In this document: positions 9,977 to 34,796 of the stretch, in pieces | Numbering within the stretch: the first letter of the stretch is position 1 | Layout of the letters: each line of letters starts with the position of its first letter | Assembly: GCA_049651845.1 (NCBI GenBank) | Contig: JBASCW010000042.1 | Coordinates: forward strand, 37,235 to 101,234 | DNA: 64,000 nt | From: Burkholderiales bacterium | Lineage (GTDB): Bacteria; Pseudomonadota; Gammaproteobacteria; Burkholderiales; SG8-39 | Direction: 5' to 3' | Program-made: the position numbers and the translations under genes | The notes under the pieces: model-generated | Told to the model about the DNA's origin: nothing | Database searches by the model: none | Seen by the model: only the letters and a program-made list of their open reading frames with translations

Positions 9977-10014
9977 TACTCACTCCGCGGTTTGCCGAGT
10001 GCCAAGGCGTCGCG

Positions 10015-10048
10015 AAAAGGCCCGGAGCGAAAATGCCGCTGCCGGGCC
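10015..10048 (-). terminator. Rho-independent terminator after the collagen-like gene
   Basis: Minus strand GGCCCGGCAGCGG-CATTTT-CGCTCCGGGCC followed by TTTT. Confidence 0.5.
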
Positions 10049-10074
10049 CGGACCTGCTTGCTGGAACAAAATGC

Positions 10075-10986
10075 TTAGAGGCTGCTCACCAGCACCTGGA
10101 CCTGGCGGTCACGTTGCAGCTTGGGATCACCGAAGCTGCCATATTGGATCTTATACGCCGGCACGCCCGCCTGCAGCAGCGCGTTACGCACGCTGGCGGC
10201 GCGGTCGCTGGTTCCGTCAAGGGCGACGGTGGCGTTCGGGTTCTGGTTCAGGTAGTTCACGATATCGGACACTTTGCTGTATTCCGAAGCACGCAGTTCC
10301 GACCTGTTGGCATCGAACCAGATGTCGCGGTACGGCGACCAGCGGCCGGGAGCGCCGGCAATGCCGCCCGGGCCTTGCTGACCCGTCGCGCCGATCGCGC
10401 CTTGCGGGCCGGTTGCGCCAGTCGCGCCTGTCGGGCCGGCTACGCCCAGCATCTCGGTGTTGCCCCGCGCTCCCGTGAATCCGGTTGCGCCTTGCGCGCC
10501 GGTGGCTCCCGTCGCGCCAACCGGGCCGGTCGGACCTTCGCGGGTCGGGCCTTGCGCGCCCGTGCTGCCGGCCACGCCTCGCAAGCCCGTAGCGCCCGTC
10601 GCACCCGTCGGACCGGCAGGCCCGGCGATGCTGGAGCCTTGCGCGCCCGTGGCGCCCATCGCGCCTTGCGCGCCCGTCGCGCCGGTAGCACCGGTCGCGC
10701 CCGCGCGGCCGACCACCATCTTGCCCTCGCTGCCCGTCGCGCCGACCGGACCTTGCATGCCTTGCGCGCCCGTGGCGCCCGTCGCGCCTGTCGGTCCGGC
10801 CATCGCCGAACCGGCCGCGCCTGTGGCGCCGGTGTAGCCTTGTGCGCCGGTCGCGCCGGTCGCGCCGGTCGGGCCGGCTGGGCCGACGTAGCTCACCGGC
10901 TCATTGGCGGGCTGCGTCGTTGCGCAACCTGCGGCGAACGCGGCGATCACGGCGAGTGACAGCGCGCTTTTCATTGCTGTTTTCAT
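10075..10986 (-). CDS. Collagen-like (G-X-Y repeat) lipoprotein with degenerate OmpA-like C-terminal domain
   Basis: 303-aa ORF; lipobox AAFAAGC (Cys21); aa 35-216 are G-X-Y triplets; C-terminus [10 protein letters not shown]...[34 protein letters not shown] resembles an OmpA C-like domain. Confidence 0.85.
10339..10884 (-). repeat. Collagen-type GXY coding repeat (five 29-codon units plus a longer terminal block)
   Basis: Five blocks of exactly 9 GXY triplets separated by 2-residue breaks (MA, VV, IA, RE), then EML and 12 more triplets; GATGATGAQ recurs. Confidence 0.85.
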
Positions 10987-12839: not shown

Positions 12840-12902
12840 GAGGGTGGAATCCGGGGAAGAAGAAGGAGGAGGACGATCTTCGGCTCACTGCCGCGCACGG
12901 TC

Positions 12903-12974: not shown

Positions 12975-12990
12975 TGTACGCTGGCGTACA
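12975..12990 (+). promoter_or_regulatory. Island box b (TGTACGCTGGCGTACA toward Crp paralog 1), perfect palindrome
   Basis: 12/12 positions; 33 nt from ATG 13024; CTACAT/TACATT at +22..28. Confidence 0.6.
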
Positions 12991-13023: not shown

Positions 13024-13719
13024 ATGCTGGAAAACAGTCTGCTGGCCGCGATGCCCCGCCAGGCGAGCCGGCGCATGCTCTCGGGGCTCGAGCCAGTCAC
13101 GCTGGCCTTCGGTGACGTGCTCTACGAGCCCGGACAAGCCATCCGGGATGTCTACTTTCCCGGCGCTTCCCTGGTGTCCTTGCTGACGCTGGCGGACGGG
13201 CATCTGGCGCTCGAAGTCGGGCTGATCGGCCGGGAAGGCATGGTCGGCATACCGCTGATCCTGGGACACAGCCTGTCGCCGGTGCGCGCGCTGGTCCAGG
13301 GCAGCGGGTCGGCGCTGCGCATGGCGGCGGCACCCTTCCGCAAGGAACTGCGGCGCAACCCGGCGCTGCAGCGAGAGCTTTACCGCTACACCTACACGTT
13401 GATGGCGCAGATCTCGCAGACCGCGGCCTGCAACCGCTTTCACGTGGTCGATCAGCGCCTCGCGCGCTGGCTGCTGATGACCCACGATCGCATGAAGTCG
13501 GACCGGTTCCATATGACGCACGAGTTCCTCGGACACATGCTGGGCGTACGTCGGGTCGGCGTCACCAAGGCGGCCCAAACGCTGCAGGCGCGCGACCTGA
13601 TCAGCTACAGCCGCGGCGACATCACGGTACTCGACCGCAAGGGTCTCGAGGCCGCTGCCTGCCAGTGCTATGAGGTCGTCAAGGACATGCACGACGGCAG
13701 GCAGGCTGGCAGCGCATAG
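13024..13719 (+). CDS. Crp/Fnr-family transcriptional regulator (paralog 1)
   Basis: 231-aa ORF; cNMP-binding-like beta-barrel then HTH MLGVRRVGVTKAAQTLQARDLISYSRG; paralogous to 15769..16536 and 34838..35647. Confidence 0.85.
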   Translation: MLENSLLAAMPRQASRRMLSGLEPVTLAFGDVLYEPGQAIRDVYFPGASLVSLLTLADGHLALEVGLIGREGMVGIPLILGHSLSPVRALVQGSGSALRMAAAPFRKELRRNPALQRELYRYTYTLMAQISQTAACNRFHVVDQRLARWLLMTHDRMKSDRFHMTHEFLGHMLGVRRVGVTKAAQTLQARDLISYSRGDITVLDRKGLEAAACQCYEVVKDMHDGRQAGSA

Positions 13720-13798
13720 AAAAAGGCCCGGAACGGGGTTGCCGTTTCGGGCCTAGTGTTGCAGGTGTTCGTCTAAGGGAGGAGAAGGGCGAACACCC
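13720..13798 (-). ncRNA. Candidate box-driven small RNA with CU-rich (anti-SD) loop and intrinsic terminator
   Basis: Box c, CATGAT -10, predicted +1 at 13798; GGTGTTCG/CGAACACC stem with loop CCCTTCTCCTCCCTTAGA; terminator GGCCCGAAACGG-CAAC-CCCGTTCCGGGCC plus TTTTT; no conserved ORF. Confidence 0.45.
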
Positions 13799-13831
13799 GT
13801 GAACATCATGTCCCGGCACACAGACTATTTC

Positions 13832-13847
13832 CGTGCGCTGGCGAACG
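13832..13847 (-). promoter_or_regulatory. Island box c (CGTTCGCCAGCGCACG toward sRNA candidate)
   Basis: 10/12 positions; lies in a 21-nt stretch identical to 34751-34771; CATGAT at +22..27. Confidence 0.5.
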
Positions 13848-13854
13848 CAAGCGA

Positions 13855-14076
13855 CTACTTGTCCTTGCCCACCTGATTGCCGATCAGGCCGCCGACGGCG
13901 GCGCCGCCGACCGTACCGACCGCGCTGCCCCCCGTGAGGACCGCGCCAGTGACCGCCCCTGCCGCCGCGCCGCCCGCGGTGTAATTATCGCGAGTCGACA
14001 TGCCGCTGCATCCGCCCAGGCCGAACAGCGCCGCGGCGGCAACCGTACTGACTGCAATGTTCCGGATCGTTTTCAT
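13855..14076 (-). CDS. OsmB-like glycine-zipper lipoprotein
   Basis: 73-aa ORF; lipobox GLGGC; Gly/Ala zipper GGAAAGAVTGAVLTGGSAVGTVGGAAVGGLIG. Confidence 0.8.
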   Translation of the reverse strand: MKTIRNIAVSTVAAAALFGLGGCSGMSTRDNYTAGGAAAGAVTGAVLTGGSAVGTVGGAAVGGLIGNQVGKDK

Positions 14077-15556: not shown

Positions 15557-15572
15557 TGTAGGCCGGCGCACG
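15557..15572 (+). promoter_or_regulatory. Island box m (TGTAGGCCGGCGCACG toward lmo0937-type gene)
   Basis: 10/12 positions; GAA then GATGAT at +22..27; SD AAGGAGA before ATG 15627. Confidence 0.5.
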
Positions 15573-15626
15573 GAACAGCCCGGGGAGTGGCTGGATGATG
15601 CGTGCCATCAACCAAGGAGATCCAGC

Positions 15627-15776
15627 ATGCTTTACATCATCGCCGTCGTTCTTCTCGTCCTCTGGGCACTGGGGTTGGTTTCGGCCTACACCATGGGCGG
15701 ATTCATCCACGTTCTGCTGGTGATCGCAGTCGTGGTCGTCCTGCTCAGACTGATCAGCGGGCGCAGCCCTATCTGA
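15627..15776 (+). CDS. lmo0937-family small membrane protein (49 aa), absent from the ORF track
   Basis: AAGGAGA SD 8 nt upstream; MLYIIAVVLLVLWALGLVSAYTMGGFIHVLLVIAVVVVLLRLISGRSPI matches this family's pattern. Confidence 0.7.
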   Translation: MLYIIAVVLLVLWALGLVSAYTMGGFIHVLLVIAVVVVLLRLISGRSPI

Positions 15777-19144: not shown

Positions 19145-19983
19145 TCAGGGCGACGGGCAGGGCGCCTCGAAGCGGCGCGCCGCGTCGGACCAGTCGACGA
19201 CGGTCCACCACTGCTTCAGGTAGTCGCCGCGGCGGTTCTCGTAATTCAGGTAGTAGGCGTGTTCCCAGACGTCGTTCACGAGCAGCGGGTACTGGCCCTG
19301 CACGAGGGGATTGCCGTGCCCGAAGGTGGTCAGGATCTCGAGCCTGCCGTCGTTGTGCTGCGACCGGGTCAGCCAAATCCAGCCCGAGCCGAAGTAGTTC
19401 GCGCCCGCATCCTAGAATTGCGACTTGAACCGCTCGAAGCTGCCGAATTCGTCGTTGATCGCAGCGGCCAGCGCACCCGTGGGCGCGCCGCCCCCGTCGG
19501 GTGACATGGCGCGCCAGAACAGGCTGTGATTGACGTAGCCGCCGGCATTGTTGCGGATCGCCGCCTGCGCGGCATCAGGGATGCGGATGAGATTGAGCAG
19601 CAGCCAGGCCGCCGAACGCTGGTGCGGATCCGGATACTGCTCGATCGCCGAGTTCAGCTTCTTCACGTACGACGCGTGATGCTTGCCGTGATGCAGCTGC
19701 ATGGTGCGCGCGTCGATGTGCGGCTCCAGCGCGTCGTGCGCGTAGGGCAGGGCCGGGAGCAGGTGCTTCGCGCAAGGTTCCACTAGATCGTCCATCTGGG
19801 CGCCGATGCGGGCGGGCTGGCGTAGTGCTCGGTCGGCGCAGGCGACGGCATGGGCTTGCGCTTGTCGGGCACCGCGCCGCCCGCAGCGCCACGCGCAGGC
19901 GGCACATAGGCCGACTGATGGATCGCCGCCGCGGTGGCGGCGGGTACCAGCAGGAGCAGCGCAAGGATGACCGCGTGTTTCAT
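19145..19983 (-). pseudogene. Fe/Mn superoxide dismutase, disrupted (in-frame TAG at 19412-19414; signal-peptide ORF in a different frame)
   Basis: LPALPYAHDALEPHIDARTMQLHHGKHH...FKSQF*DAGANYFGSGWIWL...DVWEHAYYLNYENRRGDY; the 66-aa MKHAVILALLLLVPAATAAA ORF (19783-19983) overlaps the SOD ATG (19795) out of frame. Confidence 0.6.
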
Positions 19984-20016
19984 GCCGCGATTGTCGTTTC
20001 GCCAGCCGGGCGTTTC

Positions 20017-20032
20017 TGTGCGTTGTCGAACA
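20017..20032. promoter_or_regulatory. Island box j (TGTGCGTTGTCGAACA), equidistant from two divergent ATGs
   Basis: 10/12 positions; 33 nt to ATG 19983 (-) and 33 nt to ATG 20066 (+); GACAAT and TAAATA at +22..27. Confidence 0.55.
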
Positions 20033-20065
20033 GAACTGCGCGTCGTTCTGGCGTAAATACGCAGT

Positions 20066-20293
20066 ATGAAATCCTTCCTCGTCGCCGGAATCGTCATGAT
20101 CGTGCTGGGCGGAATCTCGCTCGGCTACAACTACACCTACACGACCAAGGAGACGGTGCTCCAGGTCGGGCCGCTCAAGGCCGTTGCCGAGGAGTCGCAT
20201 ACCGTGGCGGTGCCGGCGATCCTGGGGTGGGTGCTCGTCGTCGGCGGCATCTGCGTGGTCGCCTTCGGCGCCCTATCCAAGAAGAGTTCGTAA
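20066..20293 (+). CDS. Small two-TM membrane protein (75 aa)
   Basis: MKSFLVAGIVMIVLGGISLG...ILGWVLVVGGICVVAFGAL; two hydrophobic helices; box 33 nt upstream. Confidence 0.6.
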   Translation: MKSFLVAGIVMIVLGGISLGYNYTYTTKETVLQVGPLKAVAEESHTVAVPAILGWVLVVGGICVVAFGALSKKSS

Positions 20294-26400: not shown

Positions 26401-29130
26401 GAGGCGCGTTCCCGCAGCGCGCATGGCCCCGACCAGATGCTGGCGCAGCGAGGCATCGTCCGGCTTGCGAAACAGCTCCACCATCCAGGCGCACGCCGCG
26501 GGAATCAGCAGCACCGCCAGCACGGCCGCGGTCCAGAGCCAGGCGGGCGACAGGAGCGCCCAGCCAAGCAGCAGCAGCAGGGTGAGGGCCGGGGCGACCA
26601 GGCTGCGGCGCAGGTTGTCGAGGATCTTCCACTGCGACAGGCCGGAGAGAGGATTCTTCTGCGTGCCGCCATCGCCCGCGGCAACGCGCCGGCGCAGCCA
26701 GCCGAGCAGCTGCCAGTCGCCGCGCATCCAGCGGTGCCGCCGGGCCACATCGGCGCTGTAGCGGGCCGGATACTGCTCGTAGAGTTGCACGTCGCTCGCC
26801 AGGCCGGAGCGCGCATAGCATCCTTCCAGCAGATCGTGGCTGAGGATGCGGTTGTCCGGGAAACGACCCTTCAGCGCCCGCTCGAATGCTTCGACGTCGT
26901 AGATGCCCTTGCCGATGAACGAGCCTTCGCCGAACAGATCCTGGTAGACATCGGAAACCATGCGTGTGTACGGATCGATGCCGGCTTCCTCGCCGTGCAG
27001 CTGGGCATAGCGCGTGCGGTTGCTGTCCGCCACGCTCACCGCCACGCGCGGCTGCAGTATTCCGTAGCCTTGCGTCACGCGTCCGCTCGCCTCGTCGTAC
27101 CGCGCGCGATTGAGCGGATGCGCCATCGTGGCCGCGAGCAGGCGCGCCGAGTCGCGCGGCAGCTGCGTGTCGCTGTCCAGCGTGATCACGTATCGCACGC
27201 CGGACAGGACGGCGGTGCGGCCGACCACGCGCGAGAATGCGCCAGGCGCGCCGCCGCGCAGCAGCGCATTCAGATCGCCCAGCTTGCCGCGCTTGCGCTC
27301 GCGGCCCATCCAGACGCCCTCGCGCGGGTTCCAGAGGCGCGGACGATGGAGCAGGAAGAAGACATCGCCGTCCCCCGCGCCTGCGTCGCTGCGGTATTTG
27401 TCATTCAACGCCGCGATGCGCTGCGCCGCCAACTGCAGCAGCGGCTCGTCCTGGGGCAGCGTTTCAGCGTGCGCATCGGCAAAATCCGTGAGCAGGCAGA
27501 ACCGAAGGTGCTCGTCGCGGTTGCCGAGGAAGCGGACCTCGAGCGACTCGACCAGATCCTCGACGTTCTGCGTGCTGTGGATGAGCGTCGGCACCACGAC
27601 CAGCGTCTGCGCGTCCGGCGCTATGCCCTTGGCGAAATCCAAGCGCGGCAGCACCTTCGGCGCCACCAGCAGCGTTGCCAGCCAGTTCACCAGGGCCACT
27701 GCGAGTTGGCTGGTGGCGAGCAACGCCAGCATCCCGCAAAGCACCAGGAACCAGCCCCGCGCCCCGCCGGCATGGGCCTGCGCAAGCAAGGCCCCGGTGA
27801 AGGCCGCCGTGATCAGCAGGATCGGGCCGAGATAGAGGTAGCGGCGGCGGACGCGCCGCAAGCGAAGGGAAAGGGGAACCCGCATCCGGGTCGCCTCTTC
27901 CAGCTGCCGCAGCCCTGTGTCGAAGAGGTAGAAACCGACATGTCTTGCCCGCTCGTCGCCGTCGCTGCGCGCCGCGGCTTCCTGCGCGAGCTGAACGCAG
28001 CGGCGCGCCGCCTGTTCCTCGGCGAGTCCGCTGCGCCTGGCGATCTTCTCCAGCACGTGGCGATAGTGGTCGCGGGTGGCGAAGTCCATGCGGCCGTACA
28101 CGCCGCCGGGGTCCTCGCGCAGAATGCTCTCGACGACGCTCATCGACTCGACGAAGGCATGCCAGTCGGTCGCGGCCAGCAGGCGCAGGCTGCCGATACT
28201 GTTGCTGATCGACACCTGGTCGGCCGCCTGCTGCTGGTTCTCCGCCTGCACCAGCTGCTCGATGGAAAGGCCCAGTTCCGAGAGCCGCTGCTCGATCCAG
28301 TTGAGCGGCATGGCCAGCGCCGCGCTCTGTCCTTGCAAGCGGCGCGCAAGTTCCGCCACGAATGGACCGCTCATGGGCGGGTTGGAACGCGCCATGTCCG
28401 CGACCACCAGGATCAGGCTCTTGGGGTCGTTCTGGGTGGTCTCCATCATCTCGCCCGCCCAGAAATCGGCCAGGTCCCGGCCTCTGCGGTGAGCGATGAT
28501 GCGGGTTGCGACGCGGCGCAGGTTCTCGATCAGCGCCAGGCGCAGCATGATCGGCACGGCCCACAGTTCGCCGAGGGTCAGATGGGTGACGGTCTGGTAG
28601 GCGCTGATGAAGCGGCCGAAGCTGTCGGGATCCATCTGCCCGTCGCCATGGGAAATGGTCTCCAGGGCGATGTCATAGACGCGCGGCAGTCCGGCCGACG
28701 GCCCATTGTCCAGGCGCGGCAGCTCCCGGCTGTAATCCCTGGGCAGGTGCCGCCTCGCGGTGCGGATCTGCTCCTCGATCAGGTGGAAGTTGTCCAGCAG
28801 CCATTCGCCGGCGGGCGTGCTTGCGCGTCCGTCCTTGATCGCCGCTGTGAGCAGGTCGCAGGCTTCGAGCAGCACGCCCTGGTTTTCCGCAAGGCGCGCG
28901 AGCAGCAGGTCGCGGGTGCGCCTTGCCCCCAGCGCGTGCGAGGCCGCCAGCGCCTTGCCGTACTGCTCCATCTGGTCGGCGCTGAACAGCTCGGAGCGCA
29001 GCGGCGGCTCTTCGACGGGGTGATCCGCGGTCCAGCCGCCGCGCCGGAACAGCGTCAGTGACTGGAGCAGGATTCGCGCAAGGAAGTTGCCGCTGCTTTT
29101 CAGTGGTCCTGCCTCATGCGATGCCGGCAA
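20449..29130 (-). CDS. ndvB: Cyclic beta-1,2-glucan synthase (NdvB/ChvB/Cgs type: GT84 glycosyltransferase + TM region + GH94 phosphorylase)
   Basis: 2893-aa ORF, the size and architecture of this family; N-terminal PLRSELFSADQMEQYGKALAASH, DSDTQLPRD and RHRWMRGDWQLL GT motifs, TM helices, long C-terminal GH94-like region; TTG start, no SD. Confidence 0.9.
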   Translation of the reverse strand: MPASHEAGPLKSSGNFLARILLQSLTLFRRGGWTADHPVEEPPLRSELFSADQMEQYGKALAASHALGARRTRDLLLARLAENQGVLLEACDLLTAAIKDGRASTPAGEWLLDNFHLIEEQIRTARRHLPRDYSRELPRLDNGPSAGLPRVYDIALETISHGDGQMDPDSFGRFISAYQTVTHLTLGELWAVPIMLRLALIENLRRVATRIIAHRRGRDLADFWAGEMMETTQNDPKSLILVVADMARSNPPMSGPFVAELARRLQGQSAALAMPLNWIEQRLSELGLSIEQLVQAENQQQAADQVSISNSIGSLRLLAATDWHAFVESMSVVESILREDPGGVYGRMDFATRDHYRHVLEKIARRSGLAEEQAARRCVQLAQEAAARSDGDERARHVGFYLFDTGLRQLEEATRMRVPLSLRLRRVRRRYLYLGPILLITAAFTGALLAQAHAGGARGWFLVLCGMLALLATSQLAVALVNWLATLLVAPKVLPRLDFAKGIAPDAQTLVVVPTLIHSTQNVEDLVESLEVRFLGNRDEHLRFCLLTDFADAHAETLPQDEPLLQLAAQRIAALNDKYRSDAGAGDGDVFFLLHRPRLWNPREGVWMGRERKRGKLGDLNALLRGGAPGAFSRVVGRTAVLSGVRYVITLDSDTQLPRDSARLLAATMAHPLNRARYDEASGRVTQGYGILQPRVAVSVADSNRTRYAQLHGEEAGIDPYTRMVSDVYQDLFGEGSFIGKGIYDVEAFERALKGRFPDNRILSHDLLEGCYARSGLASDVQLYEQYPARYSADVARRHRWMRGDWQLLGWLRRRVAAGDGGTQKNPLSGLSQWKILDNLRRSLVAPALTLLLLLGWALLSPAWLWTAAVLAVLLIPAACAWMVELFRKPDDASLRQHLVGAMRAAGTRLAQTVFTFACLPFEASTSLDAILRTSVRVLITRRHLLEWTASSELDPGGRFTDSLRQMWIAPIVAISTAVYLLQVRPGALAVAVPILLLWLASPLLAWWLGRPLERPQAVLSPEQISFLRLVSRKTWAFFETFVGPEDHWLPPDNYQESPATALARRTSPTNMGLSLLANLSAYDFGYVSAGTLIERTRNAFATMHKLERYRGHFYNWYDTASLLPLLPMYVSTVDSGNLAGHLLTLRPGIAALADQPILAARWREGLEDTLHALHACAPAASTNALRSFRHQLESALADRPATLAASRRMLDALAKDAALVLAELGEKSDSEHAAWVRALDRQCRDALGELRLLAPPSAMPGEHGIPTLRELAARGVSAARARMEEIAQLALQAGEMARMDYNFLYDDVRHLLMIGHNVTERRRGHHATERRRDASYYDLLASEARLTSFVAIAQGQLPQQSWFALGRLLTNAGSGATLLSWSGSMFEYLMPLLVMPSYENTLIDESCRAAVRRQIDYGAQRGVPWGMSECGYNTVDAALNYQYRAFGVPGLGLKRGLSEDLVIAPYATALALMVAPEAACANLKRLAADGLLGKFGFYEAIDYTPARLRRAETSAVVRSFMAHHQGMSFLALSHVLLDRPMQRRFVSDPLFQATLLLLQERVPRATASYSTIPEWIDFRAVAEIPEMPMRVFSTPDTRIPGVQLLSNGRYNVMITNAGGGYSRWKDLAVTRWHEDSTADNWGSFCYLRDTASGQVWSCALQPALKRTESYEAIFTEQRVEFRRHDANFDTHTEIVVSPEDDIELRRVRVTNRSRSRRTIEVTSYAEVVLASPSADALHPAFSSLFVQTEIIAARQAILCTRRPRSRGETTPWMLHLMAVHGAEVEAVSYETDRARFVGRGNSVAAPQALRDPAPLSGSEGSVLDPIVAIRQRVTLEPAQTATLDLVIGVGDSRAGCLQLVEKYQDRRLADRAFEMAWTHSQVALRQINVTEAEAQLYGRLASSIIYANASLRAEASVIAKNRRGQSGLWGYAISGDLPIVLVQLRDPANIELVRQLVQAHAYWRLKGLAVDLVIWNEERGGYRQLLHDQIMGLIAAGVEAHVIDRPGGIFVRSAEQISNEDRILLQSVARAVFTDSQGTLKEQVKQRPEVEAAMAPFAASRLRAAETARGAAAADEAAVPPRELALANGLGGFTPDGREYVITTTTAQATPAPWVNVLANPHFGCVISESGAAYTWHENAHEFRLSPWHNDSVGDASGEAYYLRDEETGQVWSPTALPCPGTGNYVSRHGFGYSVFEHSEGGIATELTVYVDLDSPVKFAVLKVRNGSGRPRRLSATGYVEWVLGALRSKSSMHVVTEIDPNSGALLARNAYNPEFGEQVAFFDVDDVTRTLSGDRTEFIGRNGTLRNPAALERARLSGRVGAAMDPCAAIQVPFDLADGSSREIIFRLGVGRGTDDASRLVQRLRKSSTASVALEAVRQYWKTTLGVVQIETPDPSLDVLCNGWLLYQTMASRLWGRSGHYQSGGAFGFRDQLQDVMALVHASPQLVREHLLLCASRQFLEGDVQHWWHPPSGRGVRTRCSDDYLWLPLATCRYVSCTGDSAVLKEQIQFLDGRPVNADEDSYYDLPLRSLQAASLYQHCVRAIENGLRMGFHGLPLMGSGDWNDGMNLVGAQGRGESVWLGFFLYQVLTQFAVLARGENDAPFAERCESEAVRLRRNIEAHAWDGGWYRRAYFDVGTPLGSAANAECQIDSIAQSWSVLSGAGTPERSKLAMNALDQRLVRRDHALVQLLDPPFDRSELDPGYIRGYVPGVRENGGQYTHAAIWASMAFAAQGDAVRAWELLDMINPLHHGDTPEGIAVYKVEPYVVAADVYAVPPHTGRGGWTWYTGSAGWMYRLILESLLGLRLAADKLHFAPCLPADWQGLELRYRHKETMYRIALRQATGGDAAMTVSVDGVLQADSTIALVDDRAEHQVEVTLRRQPIELLAPAA

Positions 29131-29231
29131 AAATGGAAGAGGCCCGGAACGGGATCGCCGTCGCCGAGCCTCGGTGCGTCAGGTGTCCACCAGTAGGAGC
29201 GCCCGTCAGGGGGAGACGAGCCAGAACACCT
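29131..29231 (-). promoter_or_regulatory. Leader of the glucan synthase gene: sRNA-like 5' element with C-rich loops and terminator-like hairpin
   Basis: Predicted +1 at 29231 from box d; 5' AGGTGTTC and 3' CCCGTTCCGGGCCT shared with the 13720-13798 RNA; hairpin then TCTTCCATTTTT running into the TTG start. Confidence 0.4.
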
Positions 29232-29264: not shown

Positions 29265-29280
29265 TGTACGCTAGCGCACA
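29265..29280 (-). promoter_or_regulatory. Island box d (TGTGCGCTAGCGTACA toward glucan synthase leader)
   Basis: 12/12 positions; GAC then CATCAT at +22..27; 6 nt after the upstream gene's stop codon. Confidence 0.6.
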
Positions 29281-29286
29281 GAAGCG

Positions 29287-30402
29287 CTAGATGGCAACGA
29301 GTGCGCCGTTTTCAATCCTGACCCGGCTGCCGACGCTGAATGCGGGCTGTGCGGGGTAGGAAACCGTTTGCGAGCCGCCGTTCTCCAGGCGCACCACCAA
29401 GTCGAAGTGCTTGGTGGATTTCATCTTTTTCTCGATTTCATTGCCGGCCCAGGCACCGCCCGCGGCGCCGGCGATCTGGGCCACGGTGGTGCCCGTGCCA
29501 TGGCCGACCTGGCTGCCGAGCAGCGCGCCGACCACGCCGCCGCCGATCATGCCGATATAGCTGCCGTCGCCCTTGACCTCGACCACGTTGATCGCCTCGA
29601 CCACGCCGCAATTGGGACAGATCTGGCGCGCGGCGGGCGCCGGTGCCGCCGCCTGGCGGCCAGTCGTGCGCTGCCGTGCGGATGAGCTGTCGACCAGCGG
29701 CTTGCCAAGGACCTTGCTGTGCTCCTGCTGGCCGATGCGCAGGTTCCCCGTGACGACCGCATTGGTTGCGATCCTGTCGCGATTCCTGATGGTGTACGCA
29801 CCCTCGTAGGCGCCGGCCCTGACTTCCTCCAGGTTGATCTTGCCGCGGACGCCGTTGATCCTGACGCTGGCGTTGCCGCTTGGGCTGCCCTCGAGAGCGA
29901 AAACGAGTTCCGAGCCCGGCGTGAGGCTGCGCGGCGGATCCACGTTGAAGAGGTTGATTTCCGGGACGCTGTTCGCGGCCGCCGAACCGCCCGGCCAGCG
30001 GAAGCCGGAGCCCTTCACCAGCGATTCGTCGAGAACGCTGCTGGCCACCTGATTGCCCCGGCGCAGATTGGCCGTGGCGGTGCTGTCCTCGGTGATCTGG
30101 TCGCGCCGGGTGATGGTGTAGATGCCTTCGTAGACGCCGGCTTCGATTTCTTCCAGGATCAGGCTCCCGGTCGCTCCGCCGATGCGCACGGTCGCGGTAC
30201 CAGCGGGGCTGCCGTAAAGCGTGAACACGAGCTCGCTGCCGGCGACCGGCTTCGCGGTGGGTACGACATCGAAGCCATCGATTCTGGGAGCCGCGTTCTG
30301 CGACGCGGACTGCTGCGCCAGCACGGTGTTCGAAGGGAGCGCCAGTGGCAGGAACGCTGCCAGTGCGAGGAGGGTTGCGCCGAGTCCGTGGTTTAGGTTC
30401 AT
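29287..30402 (-). CDS. Secreted protein: two tandem ~90-aa beta-rich repeats + CxxC/glycine-zipper 2TM module
   Basis: 371-aa ORF; signal peptide; repeats aa 39-127 and 147-236 (GSELVFxLxGSPxGxAxVRIxG...EEhxAGxYEGxYTI); C-terminus CPNCGVV...GGGVVGALLGSQVG...GNEIEKK. Confidence 0.75.
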   Translation of the reverse strand: MNLNHGLGATLLALAAFLPLALPSNTVLAQQSASQNAAPRIDGFDVVPTAKPVAGSELVFTLYGSPAGTATVRIGGATGSLILEEIEAGVYEGIYTITRRDQITEDSTATANLRRGNQVASSVLDESLVKGSGFRWPGGSAAANSVPEINLFNVDPPRSLTPGSELVFALEGSPSGNASVRINGVRGKINLEEVRAGAYEGAYTIRNRDRIATNAVVTGNLRIGQQEHSKVLGKPLVDSSSARQRTTGRQAAAPAPAARQICPNCGVVEAINVVEVKGDGSYIGMIGGGVVGALLGSQVGHGTGTTVAQIAGAAGGAWAGNEIEKKMKSTKHFDLVVRLENGGSQTVSYPAQPAFSVGSRVRIENGALVAI

Positions 30403-34204: not shown

Positions 34205-34684
34205 TTACAGGTCGACCAATACGAGCTCGATTCCGTTACGTACGAGCTTCTTGCCGTCGGGCAGCGTCAGGTAAGGCGCCGCCTGTTCGGCGGTGAGGCC
34301 ATAAGCGAAGGACATCGGACCGCGGCTGAAGCTGCCGGAGCCGTGGCCGTTGAAAAGCGTCAGGCGCTTGAACCAGAAGCGTGCCGTGGTGCCGTCGCTG
34401 CAACGGAGCTGTCCCGAGCCACCTAGCGCTGCGCTTGACGTGAAATCGCCGGCGCATGCGAGCGCGGGGTCCTTCTGCGAATGAATGGCGATGGTCCCGG
34501 CGCCGCTGAGGTGGCCTTCGGCCTCGCCGACGAAGAGCTCGCCGCCGAGGATTGCGATCACCGGGCCGGTGGACGACAGGAATCCCGCGCCCGCCCCGGT
34601 TGCCGCAGCCATACCCATGCCCACGGCGGCGATCGCAATCAGCATGCGTCGTATCCGGTTGCCGTCAATCTGAAGCAAGTTCAT
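34205..34684 (-). CDS. Hypothetical secreted/membrane-anchored protein (159 aa)
   Basis: Start MNLLQIDGNRIRRMLIAIAAVGMGMAAATG at 34684 with AAGGAAA SD; 9 nt upstream of the MlaC-like gene. Confidence 0.55.
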   Translation of the reverse strand: MNLLQIDGNRIRRMLIAIAAVGMGMAAATGAGAGFLSSTGPVIAILGGELFVGEAEGHLSGAGTIAIHSQKDPALACAGDFTSSAALGGSGQLRCSDGTTARFWFKRLTLFNGHGSGSFSRGPMSFAYGLTAEQAAPYLTLPDGKKLVRNGIELVLVDL

Positions 34685-34752
34685 CTTGTTTCCTTGCCGT
34701 GAAGCACTGGTGCGCGCTGCAGTCGAATCTACGCAACGCGGCGGGCGCAGTC

Positions 34753-34768
34753 CGTGCGCTGGCGAACG
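34753..34768 (-). promoter_or_regulatory. Island box g (CGTTCGCCAGCGCACG toward 34684/MlaC-like operon)
   Basis: Identical to box c; GAC then TAGATT at +22..27. Confidence 0.5.
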
Positions 34769-34796
34769 CAAAAGACGATGACGGCGCTGCGGGCTA

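What the first reader, a model, noticed from the sequence alone, without database searches (positions are those of the whole stretch)
13720..13847. Candidate stress-regulon small RNA with a CUCCUCCC (anti-Shine-Dalgarno) loop
This lies between the convergent Crp paralog 1 and OsmB-like genes, on the minus strand.

Order of elements: box c (13847-13832), a CATGAT -10 at the standard spacing, then a predicted +1 at 13798.

Predicted transcript: 5' GGGUGUUCG-CCCUUCUCCUCCCUUAGA-CGAACACCU GCAACACUA GGCCCGAAACGG-CAAC-CCCGUUCCGGGCC UUUUU, about 79 nt.
- It has a perfect 8-bp stem presenting an 18-nt C/U-rich loop.
- It ends in a strong intrinsic terminator whose U-tract exists only on this strand.
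- The predicted +1 falls exactly at the base of the first stem.

The loop contains UCUCCU, the exact complement of the AGGAGA Shine-Dalgarno seen in front of box-driven genes 15627, 30645 and 31545. This suggests translational repression within the same regulon.

C-rich-loop stress sRNAs are known in other phyla (for example the CCUCCUCCC-motif CcsR RNAs of Rhodobacter and the 6C RNA). I do not recognise this one.

Alternatively it could be a processed 3' UTR of the OsmB-like mRNA.
Basis: partly seen in the sequence, partly recalled or inferred. Interest (0 to 1): 0.8.

Follow-up and report, generated by a model that had tools for sequence, protein, structure and literature searches.

The report
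New Crp-driven anti-Shine-Dalgarno small RNA
This is a real, conserved ~80-nt small RNA gene of uncultured soil Burkholderiales, apparently switched on by a Crp/Fnr-type regulator encoded next to it and carrying a loop that mimics the ribosome's mRNA-binding sequence; the family is undescribed but the kind of regulator is well known.

Summary
On the minus strand, 13798 to 13720 encodes a 79-nt RNA. It has a 5'-terminal 9-bp hairpin with an 18-nt C/U-rich loop (CUCCUCCC), a 9-nt spacer and a terminator with U5.

A covariance model found 48 copies (43 distinct) in uncultured Burkholderiales-type MAGs and metagenome contigs.
- 95.8% of cells are paired and 12 of 21 pairs show compensatory changes.
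- The loop is always pyrimidine-rich: 98% contain CUCCC.
- No reading frame is conserved.

In about 40 of 42 upstream regions, a palindromic box (TGTGCG-N4-CGCACA) ends exactly 33 nt before the RNA start. This centres it at -41.5, as in a class II Crp/Fnr promoter. The gene sits beside a crp paralog, convergent or co-directional, and the gene upstream of it varies. It is therefore an independent gene, not a processed 3' UTR.

No Rfam 15 family reaches threshold. The best near-misses are other C-rich-loop sRNAs (ar14, RF02278).

The proposed targeting of SDs within the same regulon is not supported. The complementarity is generic SD pairing, and several box-driven genes are leaderless.

Copy 2 (29231 to 29133) is a divergent module inserted into the leader of the cyclic glucan synthase gene.

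Verdict: a new sRNA family of a known kind. Its targets are unknown.

The parts
13832..13847 (-). Crp/Fnr-type palindromic box (CGTTCGCCAGCGCACG; family consensus TGTGCG-N4-CGCACA), centred at -41.5 relative to the inferred +1
   Evidence: The box ends exactly 33 nt before the RNA start in about 40 of 42 distinct upstream regions. Boxes with at most 1 mismatch: 5 in the window against 0.43 expected.
13805..13810 (-). -10 hexamer CATGAT, 21 nt after the box and 6 nt before +1
   Evidence: Relatives carry CATGAT, GATGAT, CAAGAT or CAGGAT at the same position.
13720..13798 (-). The 79-nt small RNA (copy 1): inferred +1 at 13798, 3' end in the U-tract at 13724-13720
   Evidence: Fold z = -5.8. CM score 91-97 bits. 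43 distinct homologues with covariation.
13763..13798 (-). Hairpin 1: 9-bp stem (13798-13790 with 13771-13763) closing the 18-nt C/U-rich loop
   Evidence: All four inner pairs and three of five outer pairs show double-sided changes. RNAalifold predicts the same helix independently.
13772..13789 (-). Loop CCCUUCUCCUCCCUUAGA with the anti-SD-like core CUCCUCCC (13784-13777): the presumed seed
   Evidence: Among 43 homologues the loop contains CUCCC in 98% and CCUCC in 91%. It is 81% pyrimidine and its length varies from 11 to 33 nt.
13754..13762 (-). Single-stranded spacer GCAACACUA (family consensus GMAGYACY)
   Evidence: The same spacer-plus-terminator cassette also ends ordinary genes.
13720..13753 (-). 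Intrinsic terminator: 12-bp stem with a 1x1 internal loop, loop CAACC, then U5
   Evidence: The U-tract is present only on the minus strand. The opposite strand scores 24-26 bits against 91.
13024..13719 (+). Crp/Fnr-family paralog (231 aa), convergent with the sRNA: the candidate activator (inferred). It has its own box at 12975-12990.
   Evidence: Pfam HTH_Crp_2. The sRNA lies within 350 nt of the stop codon in 26 of 47 orthologues with at least 75% identity. Orientation varies: 31 convergent, 9 co-directional. Own box.
29133..29231 (-). Copy 2: a divergent sRNA-like module with an enlarged hairpin 1 carrying two C/U stretches and an interrupted U-tract. It lies between a box promoter and the cyclic beta-1,2-glucan synthase gene.
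   Evidence: 63 bits. Fold. The cgs orthologues in L111 and L115 have the box but no module, and L116 has only the module's 3' half.
29265..29280 (-). Box of copy 2 (TGTGCGCTAGCGTACA). The -10 hexamer CATCAT is at 29243-29238 and +1 at 29231.

Best explanation
This is an independently transcribed, trans-acting small regulatory RNA of about 79 nt.

1. A Crp/Fnr-family paralog, most likely the one encoded next to it, binds the palindromic box centred at -41.5. It activates a class II promoter under the condition that also induces the surrounding stress-type genes (OsmB-like, BON/OsmY-like, CsbD, entericidin, cyclic glucan synthase).
2. Transcription starts at the base of hairpin 1 and stops at the intrinsic terminator.
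3. The hairpin displays a conserved single-stranded CUCCUCCC-type loop, the same core as the 16S rRNA anti-SD. The loop is presumed to pair with Shine-Dalgarno or G-rich translation-initiation regions of target mRNAs, blocking ribosome binding and lowering translation and stability.

Shown here: the conserved structure, the conserved unpaired C/U loop, the fixed promoter geometry, linkage to crp, and strand specificity.

Inferred: the transcription start site, which Crp paralog binds the box, the inducing signal, base-pairing as the mode of action, and the identity of the targets.
For: - Structure. z = -5.8. 48 CM hits of at least 53 bits. 95.8% of cells are paired, 12 of 21 pairs have double-sided changes, and 0 of 500 shuffles reach the observed values. 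Slid controls give only 39-49% pairing. RNAalifold agrees.
- Loop. Its sequence is conserved without pairing, while its length drifts from 11 to 33 nt.
- Coding. No frame is open in all copies.
- Promoter. The box ends exactly 33 nt before the RNA start in about 40 of 42 distinct upstream regions, with an NATGAT-like -10.
- Start site. The same geometry places the A of ATG at +1 for several genes, and ATG is enriched at offsets 33-34 across all loci. This calibrates the inferred TSS.
- Linkage to crp holds in both orientations.
- Known aSD-loop sRNAs act this way: NfeR1/ar14 (PMC10746234), cuckoo/CcsR (PMC4615179) and the Burkholderia double-hairpin ncS27 (PMC5688073). FNR-activated FnrS is the precedent for a Crp/Fnr-driven sRNA (PMC8139620).
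Against: - There are no expression data, so the TSS and 3' end are inferred only.
- No specific target was found. Complementarity to the window's genes is generic SD pairing, and box-driven genes are not enriched.
- The spacer-plus-terminator half is a cassette that also terminates ordinary genes in this lineage. Only hairpin 1 and the promoter are specific to the sRNA.
- All loci were retrieved through crp homology, so linkage to crp is partly a matter of ascertainment.
- The copy-1 box has 3 mismatches to the consensus.
- Copy 2 appears to be used in cis, as a leader.
Confidence: 0.6

Rival explanations
1. It is a processed or read-through 3' UTR of the upstream OsmB-like lipoprotein mRNA (13855-14076), not an independent gene.
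For: In the window the box starts only 7 nt after the OsmB-like stop codon, with no terminator in between. An OsmB-like gene lies upstream in 19 of 48 copies.
Against: - In the other copies the upstream gene is a different crp paralog or crp1 itself.
- The promoter box and -10 are conserved at a fixed 33-nt distance.
- In L044 and L071 the OsmB-like gene has its own terminator before the sRNA promoter.
Confidence: 0.04
2. It is a cis-acting leader or attenuator module. The hairpin plus leaky terminator controls read-through into a downstream gene, as copy 2 seems to do for cgs. Alternatively, convergent transcription damps the crp gene.
For: - Copy 2 sits between a box promoter and the cgs start, with an interrupted U-tract (UCUUCCAUUUUU).
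- In L002 a gene follows on the same strand about 70 nt after the terminator.
- Copy 1 ends 1 nt from the crp stop codon.
Against: - In 31 of 48 copies nothing follows on the same strand except the 3' end of a convergent crp.
- The canonical copies have uninterrupted U5-U8 tails.
- The nine co-directional copies cannot act by convergent interference.
- cgs orthologues work without the module.
Confidence: 0.1
3. It is a protein- or ribosome-binding RNA rather than an mRNA-pairing one. The pyrimidine loop would titrate an RNA-binding protein (for example S1, Hfq or a cold-shock/PTB-like protein) or act as a decoy.
For: - The loop keeps its composition and the CUCCC core rather than a long fixed seed, and its length varies from 11 to 33 nt.
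- No specific mRNA partner was found.
Against: - There are no GGA motifs for CsrA-type proteins (23% of loops).
- All characterised RNAs with this loop type act by SD pairing (PMC10746234, PMC5688073).
- No candidate partner protein is linked to the locus.
Confidence: 0.12
4. It is not a functional RNA. The terminator serves crp or the OsmB-like gene, and the hairpin is a chance or repeat-derived palindrome.
For: The terminator cassette is generic in the lineage, and the anti-SD octamer alone is not over-represented.
Against: - Hairpin 1 covaries.
- The promoter and the RNA start are phased to the nucleotide in 40 independent sequences.
- The U-tract and the G.U pairs are strand-specific.
Confidence: 0.02

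Closest known systems
FnrS (E. coli/Salmonella; RF01796), the FNR-activated Hfq-dependent sRNA
   Same: - It is a short trans-acting sRNA.
- Its promoter depends on a Crp/Fnr-family activator.
- It forms the post-transcriptional arm of that regulator's regulon.
- It represses many mRNAs by pairing at translation-initiation regions (PMC8139620).
   Different: - There is no sequence or structure match: FnrS was not among the hits at E <= 10.
- The box is TGTGCG-N4-CGCACA, not TTGAT-N4-ATCAA.
- The regulator has no FNR-type N-terminal Cys cluster (sequence).
- Here the seed is a hairpin loop.
- The gene is physically linked to its presumed regulator.
ar14 / cuckoo / CcsR / NfeR1 family of Alphaproteobacteria (RF02344)
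   Same: - Stress-induced sRNAs whose hairpin loops carry CCUCCUCCC anti-SD motifs that occlude ribosome-binding sites (PMC4615179, PMC10746234).
- ar14 is the best sub-threshold Rfam hit: 27.9 bits here, and 28-41 bits in relatives.
   Different: - That family has 2-4 modules, each carrying the motif. Here only one hairpin has it, and the second is a plain terminator.
- Scores are below the gathering threshold of 58.8.
- The phylogenetic class, promoter type (RpoH or LsrB/NtrC there) and neighbourhood all differ.
Betaproteobacteria 'toxic' double-hairpin sRNAs (RF02278; B. cenocepacia ncS03/ncS27 etc.)
   Same: - They are betaproteobacterial and about 65-80 nt long, with two hairpins.
- They carry CU-rich unpaired stretches complementary to RBS regions.
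- There are several copies per genome (PMC5688073).
   Different: - Scores are 12.9 bits here and at most 26.7 in relatives, against a gathering score of 50.
- In those RNAs CU stretches occur in both unpaired regions.
- They have no shared Crp-type box promoter and no crp linkage.
sX13 (Xanthomonas), RoxS (Bacillus/Staphylococcus), 6C RNA: C-rich-loop sRNAs
   Same: C-rich hairpin loops are used as seeds against G-rich or SD regions. sX13 appears as a weak sub-threshold hit (25.8 bits against 50).
   Different: The sequences, regulators and hosts are unrelated. The resemblance is convergent. The mechanisms of these RNAs are cited from my own knowledge, not tested here.

Membership tests
ar14 / cuckoo (RF02344) | Rfam covariance model score at or above the gathering threshold (58.8 bits) | tested here: not met
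   27.9 bits for the window copy. 28.0-40.7 bits for three relatives. No gathering-level hit in the window or in 14 homologue loci.
ar14 / cuckoo (RF02344) | 2-4 adjacent hairpins, each carrying CCUCCUCCC in its loop (PMC4615179) | tested here: not met
   Only hairpin 1 has a C/U loop. The terminator loop is CAACC or CGAUC.
ar14 / cuckoo (RF02344) | The exact CCUCCUCCC loop motif | tested here: inconclusive
   The window copy has UCUCCUCCC (8 of 9). Among relatives, 58% contain CUCCUCC and 79% contain CCUCCC.
Betaproteobacteria toxic sRNA (RF02278) | Rfam model score at or above 50 bits | tested here: not met
   12.9 bits (E = 8.9) here. The best relative scores 26.7 bits.
Betaproteobacteria toxic sRNA (RF02278) | Double hairpin with CU-rich stretches in both unpaired regions (PMC5688073) | tested here: not met
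   There is one CU-rich loop only. The spacer (GMAGYACY) and the terminator loop are not CU-rich.
FnrS (RF01796) | Sequence and structure match to the family model | tested here: not met
   FnrS is not among the hits at E <= 10 in the 600-nt region.
Class II Crp/Fnr-dependent promoter | Palindromic activator site centred near -41.5, overlapping the -35 position, with a -10 element at the proper distance | tested here: met
   The box ends 33 nt before the conserved RNA 5' end in about 40 of 42 upstream regions, placing its centre at -41.5. The -10 hexamer follows 21 nt after the box. The TSS itself is inferred. It is supported by ATG falling at the same offset in leaderless genes.
Class II Crp/Fnr-dependent promoter | Binding and activation by a Crp/Fnr-family protein | not testable with these tools
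   Three Crp paralogs are in the window and the sRNA is linked to one of them. No binding data exist.
Trans-acting base-pairing sRNA with intrinsic terminator | Discrete non-coding transcript with its own promoter and a Rho-independent terminator with a U-tail | tested here: met
   By sequence only: a conserved promoter, a terminator with U5-U8 and no conserved ORF. The transcript itself has not been observed.
Trans-acting base-pairing sRNA with intrinsic terminator | A conserved single-stranded seed with identifiable complementary mRNA targets | tested here: inconclusive
   The seed is conserved and unpaired. Only generic SD complementarity was found among 50 TIRs. Whole genomes were not available for CopraRNA-type prediction.
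Trans-acting base-pairing sRNA with intrinsic terminator | Dependence on Hfq or ProQ | not testable with these tools
   No data.

The most novel reading that the evidence does not exclude
The sRNA is a general anti-SD competitor that forms one half of a two-part stress programme. The Crp paralog switches on a regulon in which a large share of mRNAs are leaderless or SD-less, and so are immune to an anti-SD RNA. In the window these are crp1 at 13024, the gene at 30402, 33437, and 19983/20066 from one bidirectional box, plus the BON gene with its CU-rich SD-less leader. At the same time the Crp paralog produces an RNA that mimics the 16S anti-SD and dampens translation of SD-led (growth) mRNAs. 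This would reallocate ribosomes to the stress regulon.
Probability: 0.1. Interest if true: 0.75.

Novelty: new member of a known kind. Interest (0 to 1): 0.5.

Why it matters
- It adds an undescribed sRNA family, absent from Rfam 15, from a widespread but uncultured group of soil and sediment Burkholderiales. The promoter, start, seed and terminator are all definable from sequence alone.
- It ties that sRNA to a compact Crp-paralog stress regulon. That gives a ready-made, testable regulator-sRNA pair for lineages with no genetics. The box/-10/+1 geometry is precise enough to predict regulon members and leaderless mRNAs in MAGs.
- If the leaderless-regulon idea were right, it would be a neat example of translational reallocation.
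- Otherwise it is one more case of the recurrent anti-SD-loop sRNA solution, evolved independently of the alphaproteobacterial and Burkholderia families.

Tried and rejected
- Rfam at gathering thresholds, on the window and on 14 homologue loci: nothing but a tRNA.
- Rfam in E-value mode: only sub-threshold hits to other C-rich-loop sRNAs. Membership in those families is rejected.
- The simple promoter/terminator scan found nothing. The promoter is not sigma-70 consensus, and the terminator has an internal loop.
- Plasmid collection megablast gave no close relative. The exact OsmB-like protein occurs only on one 1.8-kb Logan contig.
- Weak CM hits turned out to be only the shared terminator cassette after ordinary genes, not further sRNAs (window 10011-10094, L003 879-935, L044 2789-2877, L073 and others).
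- A filters-off CM search of 9-36 kb found no extra copy.
- RNAduplex of the loop against 50 TIRs showed no enrichment of box-driven genes.
- I tested whether leaderless crp1 is conserved. It is not: most orthologues have a longer N-terminus or a different upstream region. The crp1 leaderless call is therefore specific to this window.
- I tested whether copy 2 is a conserved cgs leader. It is not: the closest orthologues with upstream sequence (L111, L115) have the box but no module, L112 (87% id) shows no CM hit, and one (L116) has a remnant.
- A small-ORF reading (13679-13819, 46 aa) is rejected because no frame is conserved.

Full report
**1. What is in the sequence**

On the minus strand, the OsmB-like lipoprotein gene (13855-14076; NCBIfam OsmB 67.9 bits, below its cutoff) ends at 13855. 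The following elements come next:
- a 16-mer box CGTTCGCCAGCGCACG (13847-13832);
- 21 nt of spacer;
- CATGAT (13810-13805);
- 6 nt;
- G at 13798.

From 13798 the sequence reads GGGUGUUCG-CCCUUCUCCUCCCUUAGA-CGAACACCU-GCAACACUA-GGCCCGAAACGG-CAACC-CCGUUCCGGGCC-UUUUU, ending at 13720. That is one base from the stop codon of a convergent Crp/Fnr-family gene (13024-13719, +; Pfam HTH_Crp_2).

RNAfold gives the two hairpins at -35.4 kcal/mol, z = -5.8. The consensus terminator scan missed the terminator because of its 1x1 internal loop. The U-tract exists only on the minus strand.

**2. It is conserved, structured and non-coding**

The window comes from an uncultured lineage.
- The nearest plasmid records share only 73-77% identity over 300 nt.
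- The exact OsmB-like protein is found only on one Logan contig.

I fetched loci through the neighbouring Crp protein: 29 genome loci, all MAGs labelled Burkholderiales, beta proteobacterium or Georgfuchsia, and 80 metagenome loci.

BLAST and an initial alignment showed five full-length homologues, promoter included. I then built two covariance models:
- R1, from 6 sequences;
- R2, from 10 sequences.

R2 recovered 48 copies (43 distinct) at 53-98 bits, E <= 2e-9.

On that alignment:
- 95.8% of pair cells are canonical;
- 12 of 21 pairs show double-sided changes (for example the innermost pair of hairpin 1: GC 24, AU 17);
- no shuffle out of 500 reaches any of the observed measures;
- sliding the partners drops pairing to 39-49%.

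The alignment was fitted to the model. RNAalifold nevertheless predicts hairpin 1 and the outer terminator helix independently, with 10 of 16 pairs compensated.

The loop keeps its character while its length drifts from 11 to 33 nt. It contains CUCCC in 98% of copies and CCUCC in 91%, and is 81% pyrimidine. No reading frame is open in all copies, and total lengths (77-99 nt) differ by amounts that are not multiples of three. The opposite strand scores only 24-26 bits.

**3. It has its own promoter, phased to the nucleotide**

In about 40 of 42 distinct upstream regions, a palindromic box with consensus TGTGCG-N4-CGCACA ends exactly 33 nt before the first base of the RNA model. An NATGAT-like hexamer follows 21 nt after the box. 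That places the box centre at -41.5, which is the geometry of class II CRP/FNR activation. I cite that geometry from established knowledge.

Boxes with at most one mismatch occur 5 times in the window against 0.43 expected.

The same box-21-hexamer-6 layout places the A of an ATG at the predicted +1 for several genes in the window:
- 13024 (crp1);
- 30402;
- 33437;
- 19983 and 20066, which share one box.

These are shown. Across all fetched loci, ATG is enriched at offsets 33-34 after the box (7 and 9 counts against a background of about 2-3). These apparent leaderless mRNAs independently calibrate the inferred start at 13798. The TSS remains an inference, because no expression data could be consulted.

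**4. Context**

- The sRNA lies 0-138 nt from the 3' end of a convergent crp1 orthologue in 31 of 48 copies.
- It lies just downstream of crp1, in the same orientation, in 9 copies.
- The gene upstream on its own strand is OsmB-like in 19 copies, another crp paralog in several, and crp1 itself in the rest.
- Among crp orthologues of at least 75% identity with enough flank, 26 of 47 have the sRNA within 350 nt of the stop codon.
- In L044 and L071 the OsmB-like gene has its own terminator before the sRNA promoter.

These points argue against a processed OsmB 3' UTR and for a regulator-sRNA gene pair. One caveat is that loci were retrieved via crp, so copies elsewhere in these genomes are invisible. 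L002, L004, L010, L047 and L061 show that copies away from crp do exist.

**5. What is generic and what is specific**

The weaker model hits are only the 3' half: spacer GMAGYACC plus GGCCCGG-AACGG...CCGUU-CCGGGCC-U(n). They sit after ordinary coding genes (window 10011-10094, L003 879-935, L044 2789-2877, L073 and others). That half is a lineage-wide terminator cassette. The sRNA-specific parts are the promoter and hairpin 1 with its loop.

**6. Copy 2**

Copy 2 runs from 29231 to 29133 on the minus strand.
- It has the same box/-10/+1 geometry and the same 5' GGUGUUC.
- Its hairpin 1 is enlarged and carries two C/U stretches.
- Its U-tract is interrupted (UCUUCCAUUUUU).

It lies immediately upstream of a 2893-aa cyclic beta-1,2-glucan synthase gene (GH94 and GT2 domains). 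By alignment with orthologues, that gene starts at TTG 29130 or CTG 29103.

Orthologous cgs genes differ in their upstream regions:
- L111 and L115 carry the box and a plain leader of about 55 nt, with no module.
- L116 carries only the module's 3' half.

So cgs is a regulon member, and copy 2 is a lineage-specific insertion of the sRNA module into its leader. It probably acts as a leaky terminator or leader. Whether it also yields a free sRNA is open.

**7. Mechanism**

The conserved, unpaired CUCCUCCC-type loop has the same core as the 16S anti-SD. In every characterised family with such loops, the loop occludes ribosome-binding sites:
- NfeR1/ar14 (PMC10746234);
- cuckoo/CcsR (PMC4615179);
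- Burkholderia ncS27 (PMC5688073).

A Crp/Fnr-activated sRNA acting as the repressive arm of a regulon has a precedent in FnrS (PMC8139620).

I therefore favour a Crp-paralog-induced, trans-acting translational repressor (confidence about 0.6).

The motif is indeed there, but this is ordinary SD complementarity.
- In an RNAduplex screen of 50 initiation regions, those genes rank mid-field.
- The family consensus loop (CCUCCUCCC) complements the canonical GGAGG rather than anything locus-specific.
- Several regulon genes are leaderless or SD-less.

This last point suggests the speculative alternative given as the novel case.

**8. Comparison with known families**

- Rfam 15 has no family at threshold, either in the window or in 14 homologue loci.
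- Sub-threshold hits are ar14 (27.9-40.7 against 58.8), RF02278 (12.9-26.7 against 50), sX13 and anti-hemB. All are C-rich-loop sRNAs.
- The defining cuckoo feature, 2-4 hairpins each carrying the motif (PMC4615179), is not met.
- Literature searches for the motif returned only the alphaproteobacterial families, and Burkholderia sRNA papers describe different RNAs.

I file it as a new family of a known kind.

**9. Verdict**

The sRNA, its promoter and its aSD loop hold up. Same-regulon targeting does not, and the 3' UTR alternative is rejected.
- Interest is moderate (0.5). The family is solid, cleanly definable and new, in uncultured bacteria. The architecture and likely mechanism are familiar, and the targets and inducing signal remain unknown.

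Noticed in passing
window 12900-34820: This is a dense regulon of the palindromic box TGTGCG-N4-CGCACA with class II spacing. Boxes precede:
- BON/OsmY-like (12903);
- crp1 (12975);
- OmpA-like (15512);
- DUF5670 (15557);
- the HK/RR operon or the SOD remnant (19116, perfect box);
- 20017;
- copy 2/cgs (29265);
- Gly-zipper 371 aa (30436);
- a 169-aa hypothetical protein (30575);
- entericidin (31477);
- 33471;
- 34753;
- a third crp paralog (34797, perfect box).
Three Crp paralogs and a PAS-HK/RR pair lie inside the cluster.
   Followed up: partly
window 19981-20068 (box 20017-20032): One palindromic box appears to drive two divergent leaderless genes. ATG lies exactly 33 nt from each end of the box: 20066 on the + strand (MKSFLVAGIV...) and 19983 on the - strand (MKHAVILALLLL...). 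Other apparent leaderless starts are at 30402, 33437 and 13024.
   Followed up: partly
window 12840-12883 (-): The predicted 5' UTR of the BON/OsmY-like lipoprotein gene (CGUCCUCCUCCUUCUUCUUCCCCGGAUUCCACCCUC-AUG) is pyrimidine-rich and lacks an SD. It resembles the sRNA loop rather than its complement. This is unexplained.
   Followed up: no
window 10015-10048 (-), 13720-13753 (-), 29140-29175 (-); L003 879-935, L073 355-438 and others: A near-identical terminator cassette (GMAGYACC + GGCCCGG-AACGG-loop-CCGUU-CCGGGCC + U-run) is reused after unrelated genes across this lineage. It inflates CM scores for anything that ends in it.
   Followed up: partly
window 34751-34771 (-) and 13830-13850 (-): An identical 21-mer (TTGCGTTCGCCAGCGCACGGA) contains the degenerate 3-mismatch box. 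It is present at two promoters, suggesting recent duplication or conversion. The second copy drives the gene at 34205-34693.
   Followed up: partly
window 19145-19983 (-): A signal-peptide-bearing Fe/Mn superoxide dismutase gene downstream of the 20017 box seems broken by frameshifts or a stop. Only a 52-aa Sod_Fe_C ORF (19145-19303) remains intact. It is either a pseudogene or an assembly error.
   Followed up: no
window 29103-29130 (-): The 2893-aa cyclic beta-1,2-glucan synthase has no ATG or GTG start. Orthologues start at TTG (L111, L112, L115, L116). The aligned codon in the window is CTG (29103), with an in-frame TTG at 29130 inside the U-tract of copy 2.
   Followed up: partly
L031 2350-2540 (+): In a relative, the DUF5670 gene is preceded by a box promoter, then a short region ending in the terminator cassette, then the SD and ATG. 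This is a different leader/terminator arrangement from the direct promoter in the window (15557-15627).
   Followed up: no
L085 70-146 (-) and 2666-2742 (-); L002 and L004 (same MAG): Some genomes carry two or more copies of the sRNA. L085 has two copies flanking crp on one 2.7-kb contig. MAG MFD02416.bin.2.181 has two contigs, each with a crp and an OsmB-like gene plus the sRNA.
   Followed up: no
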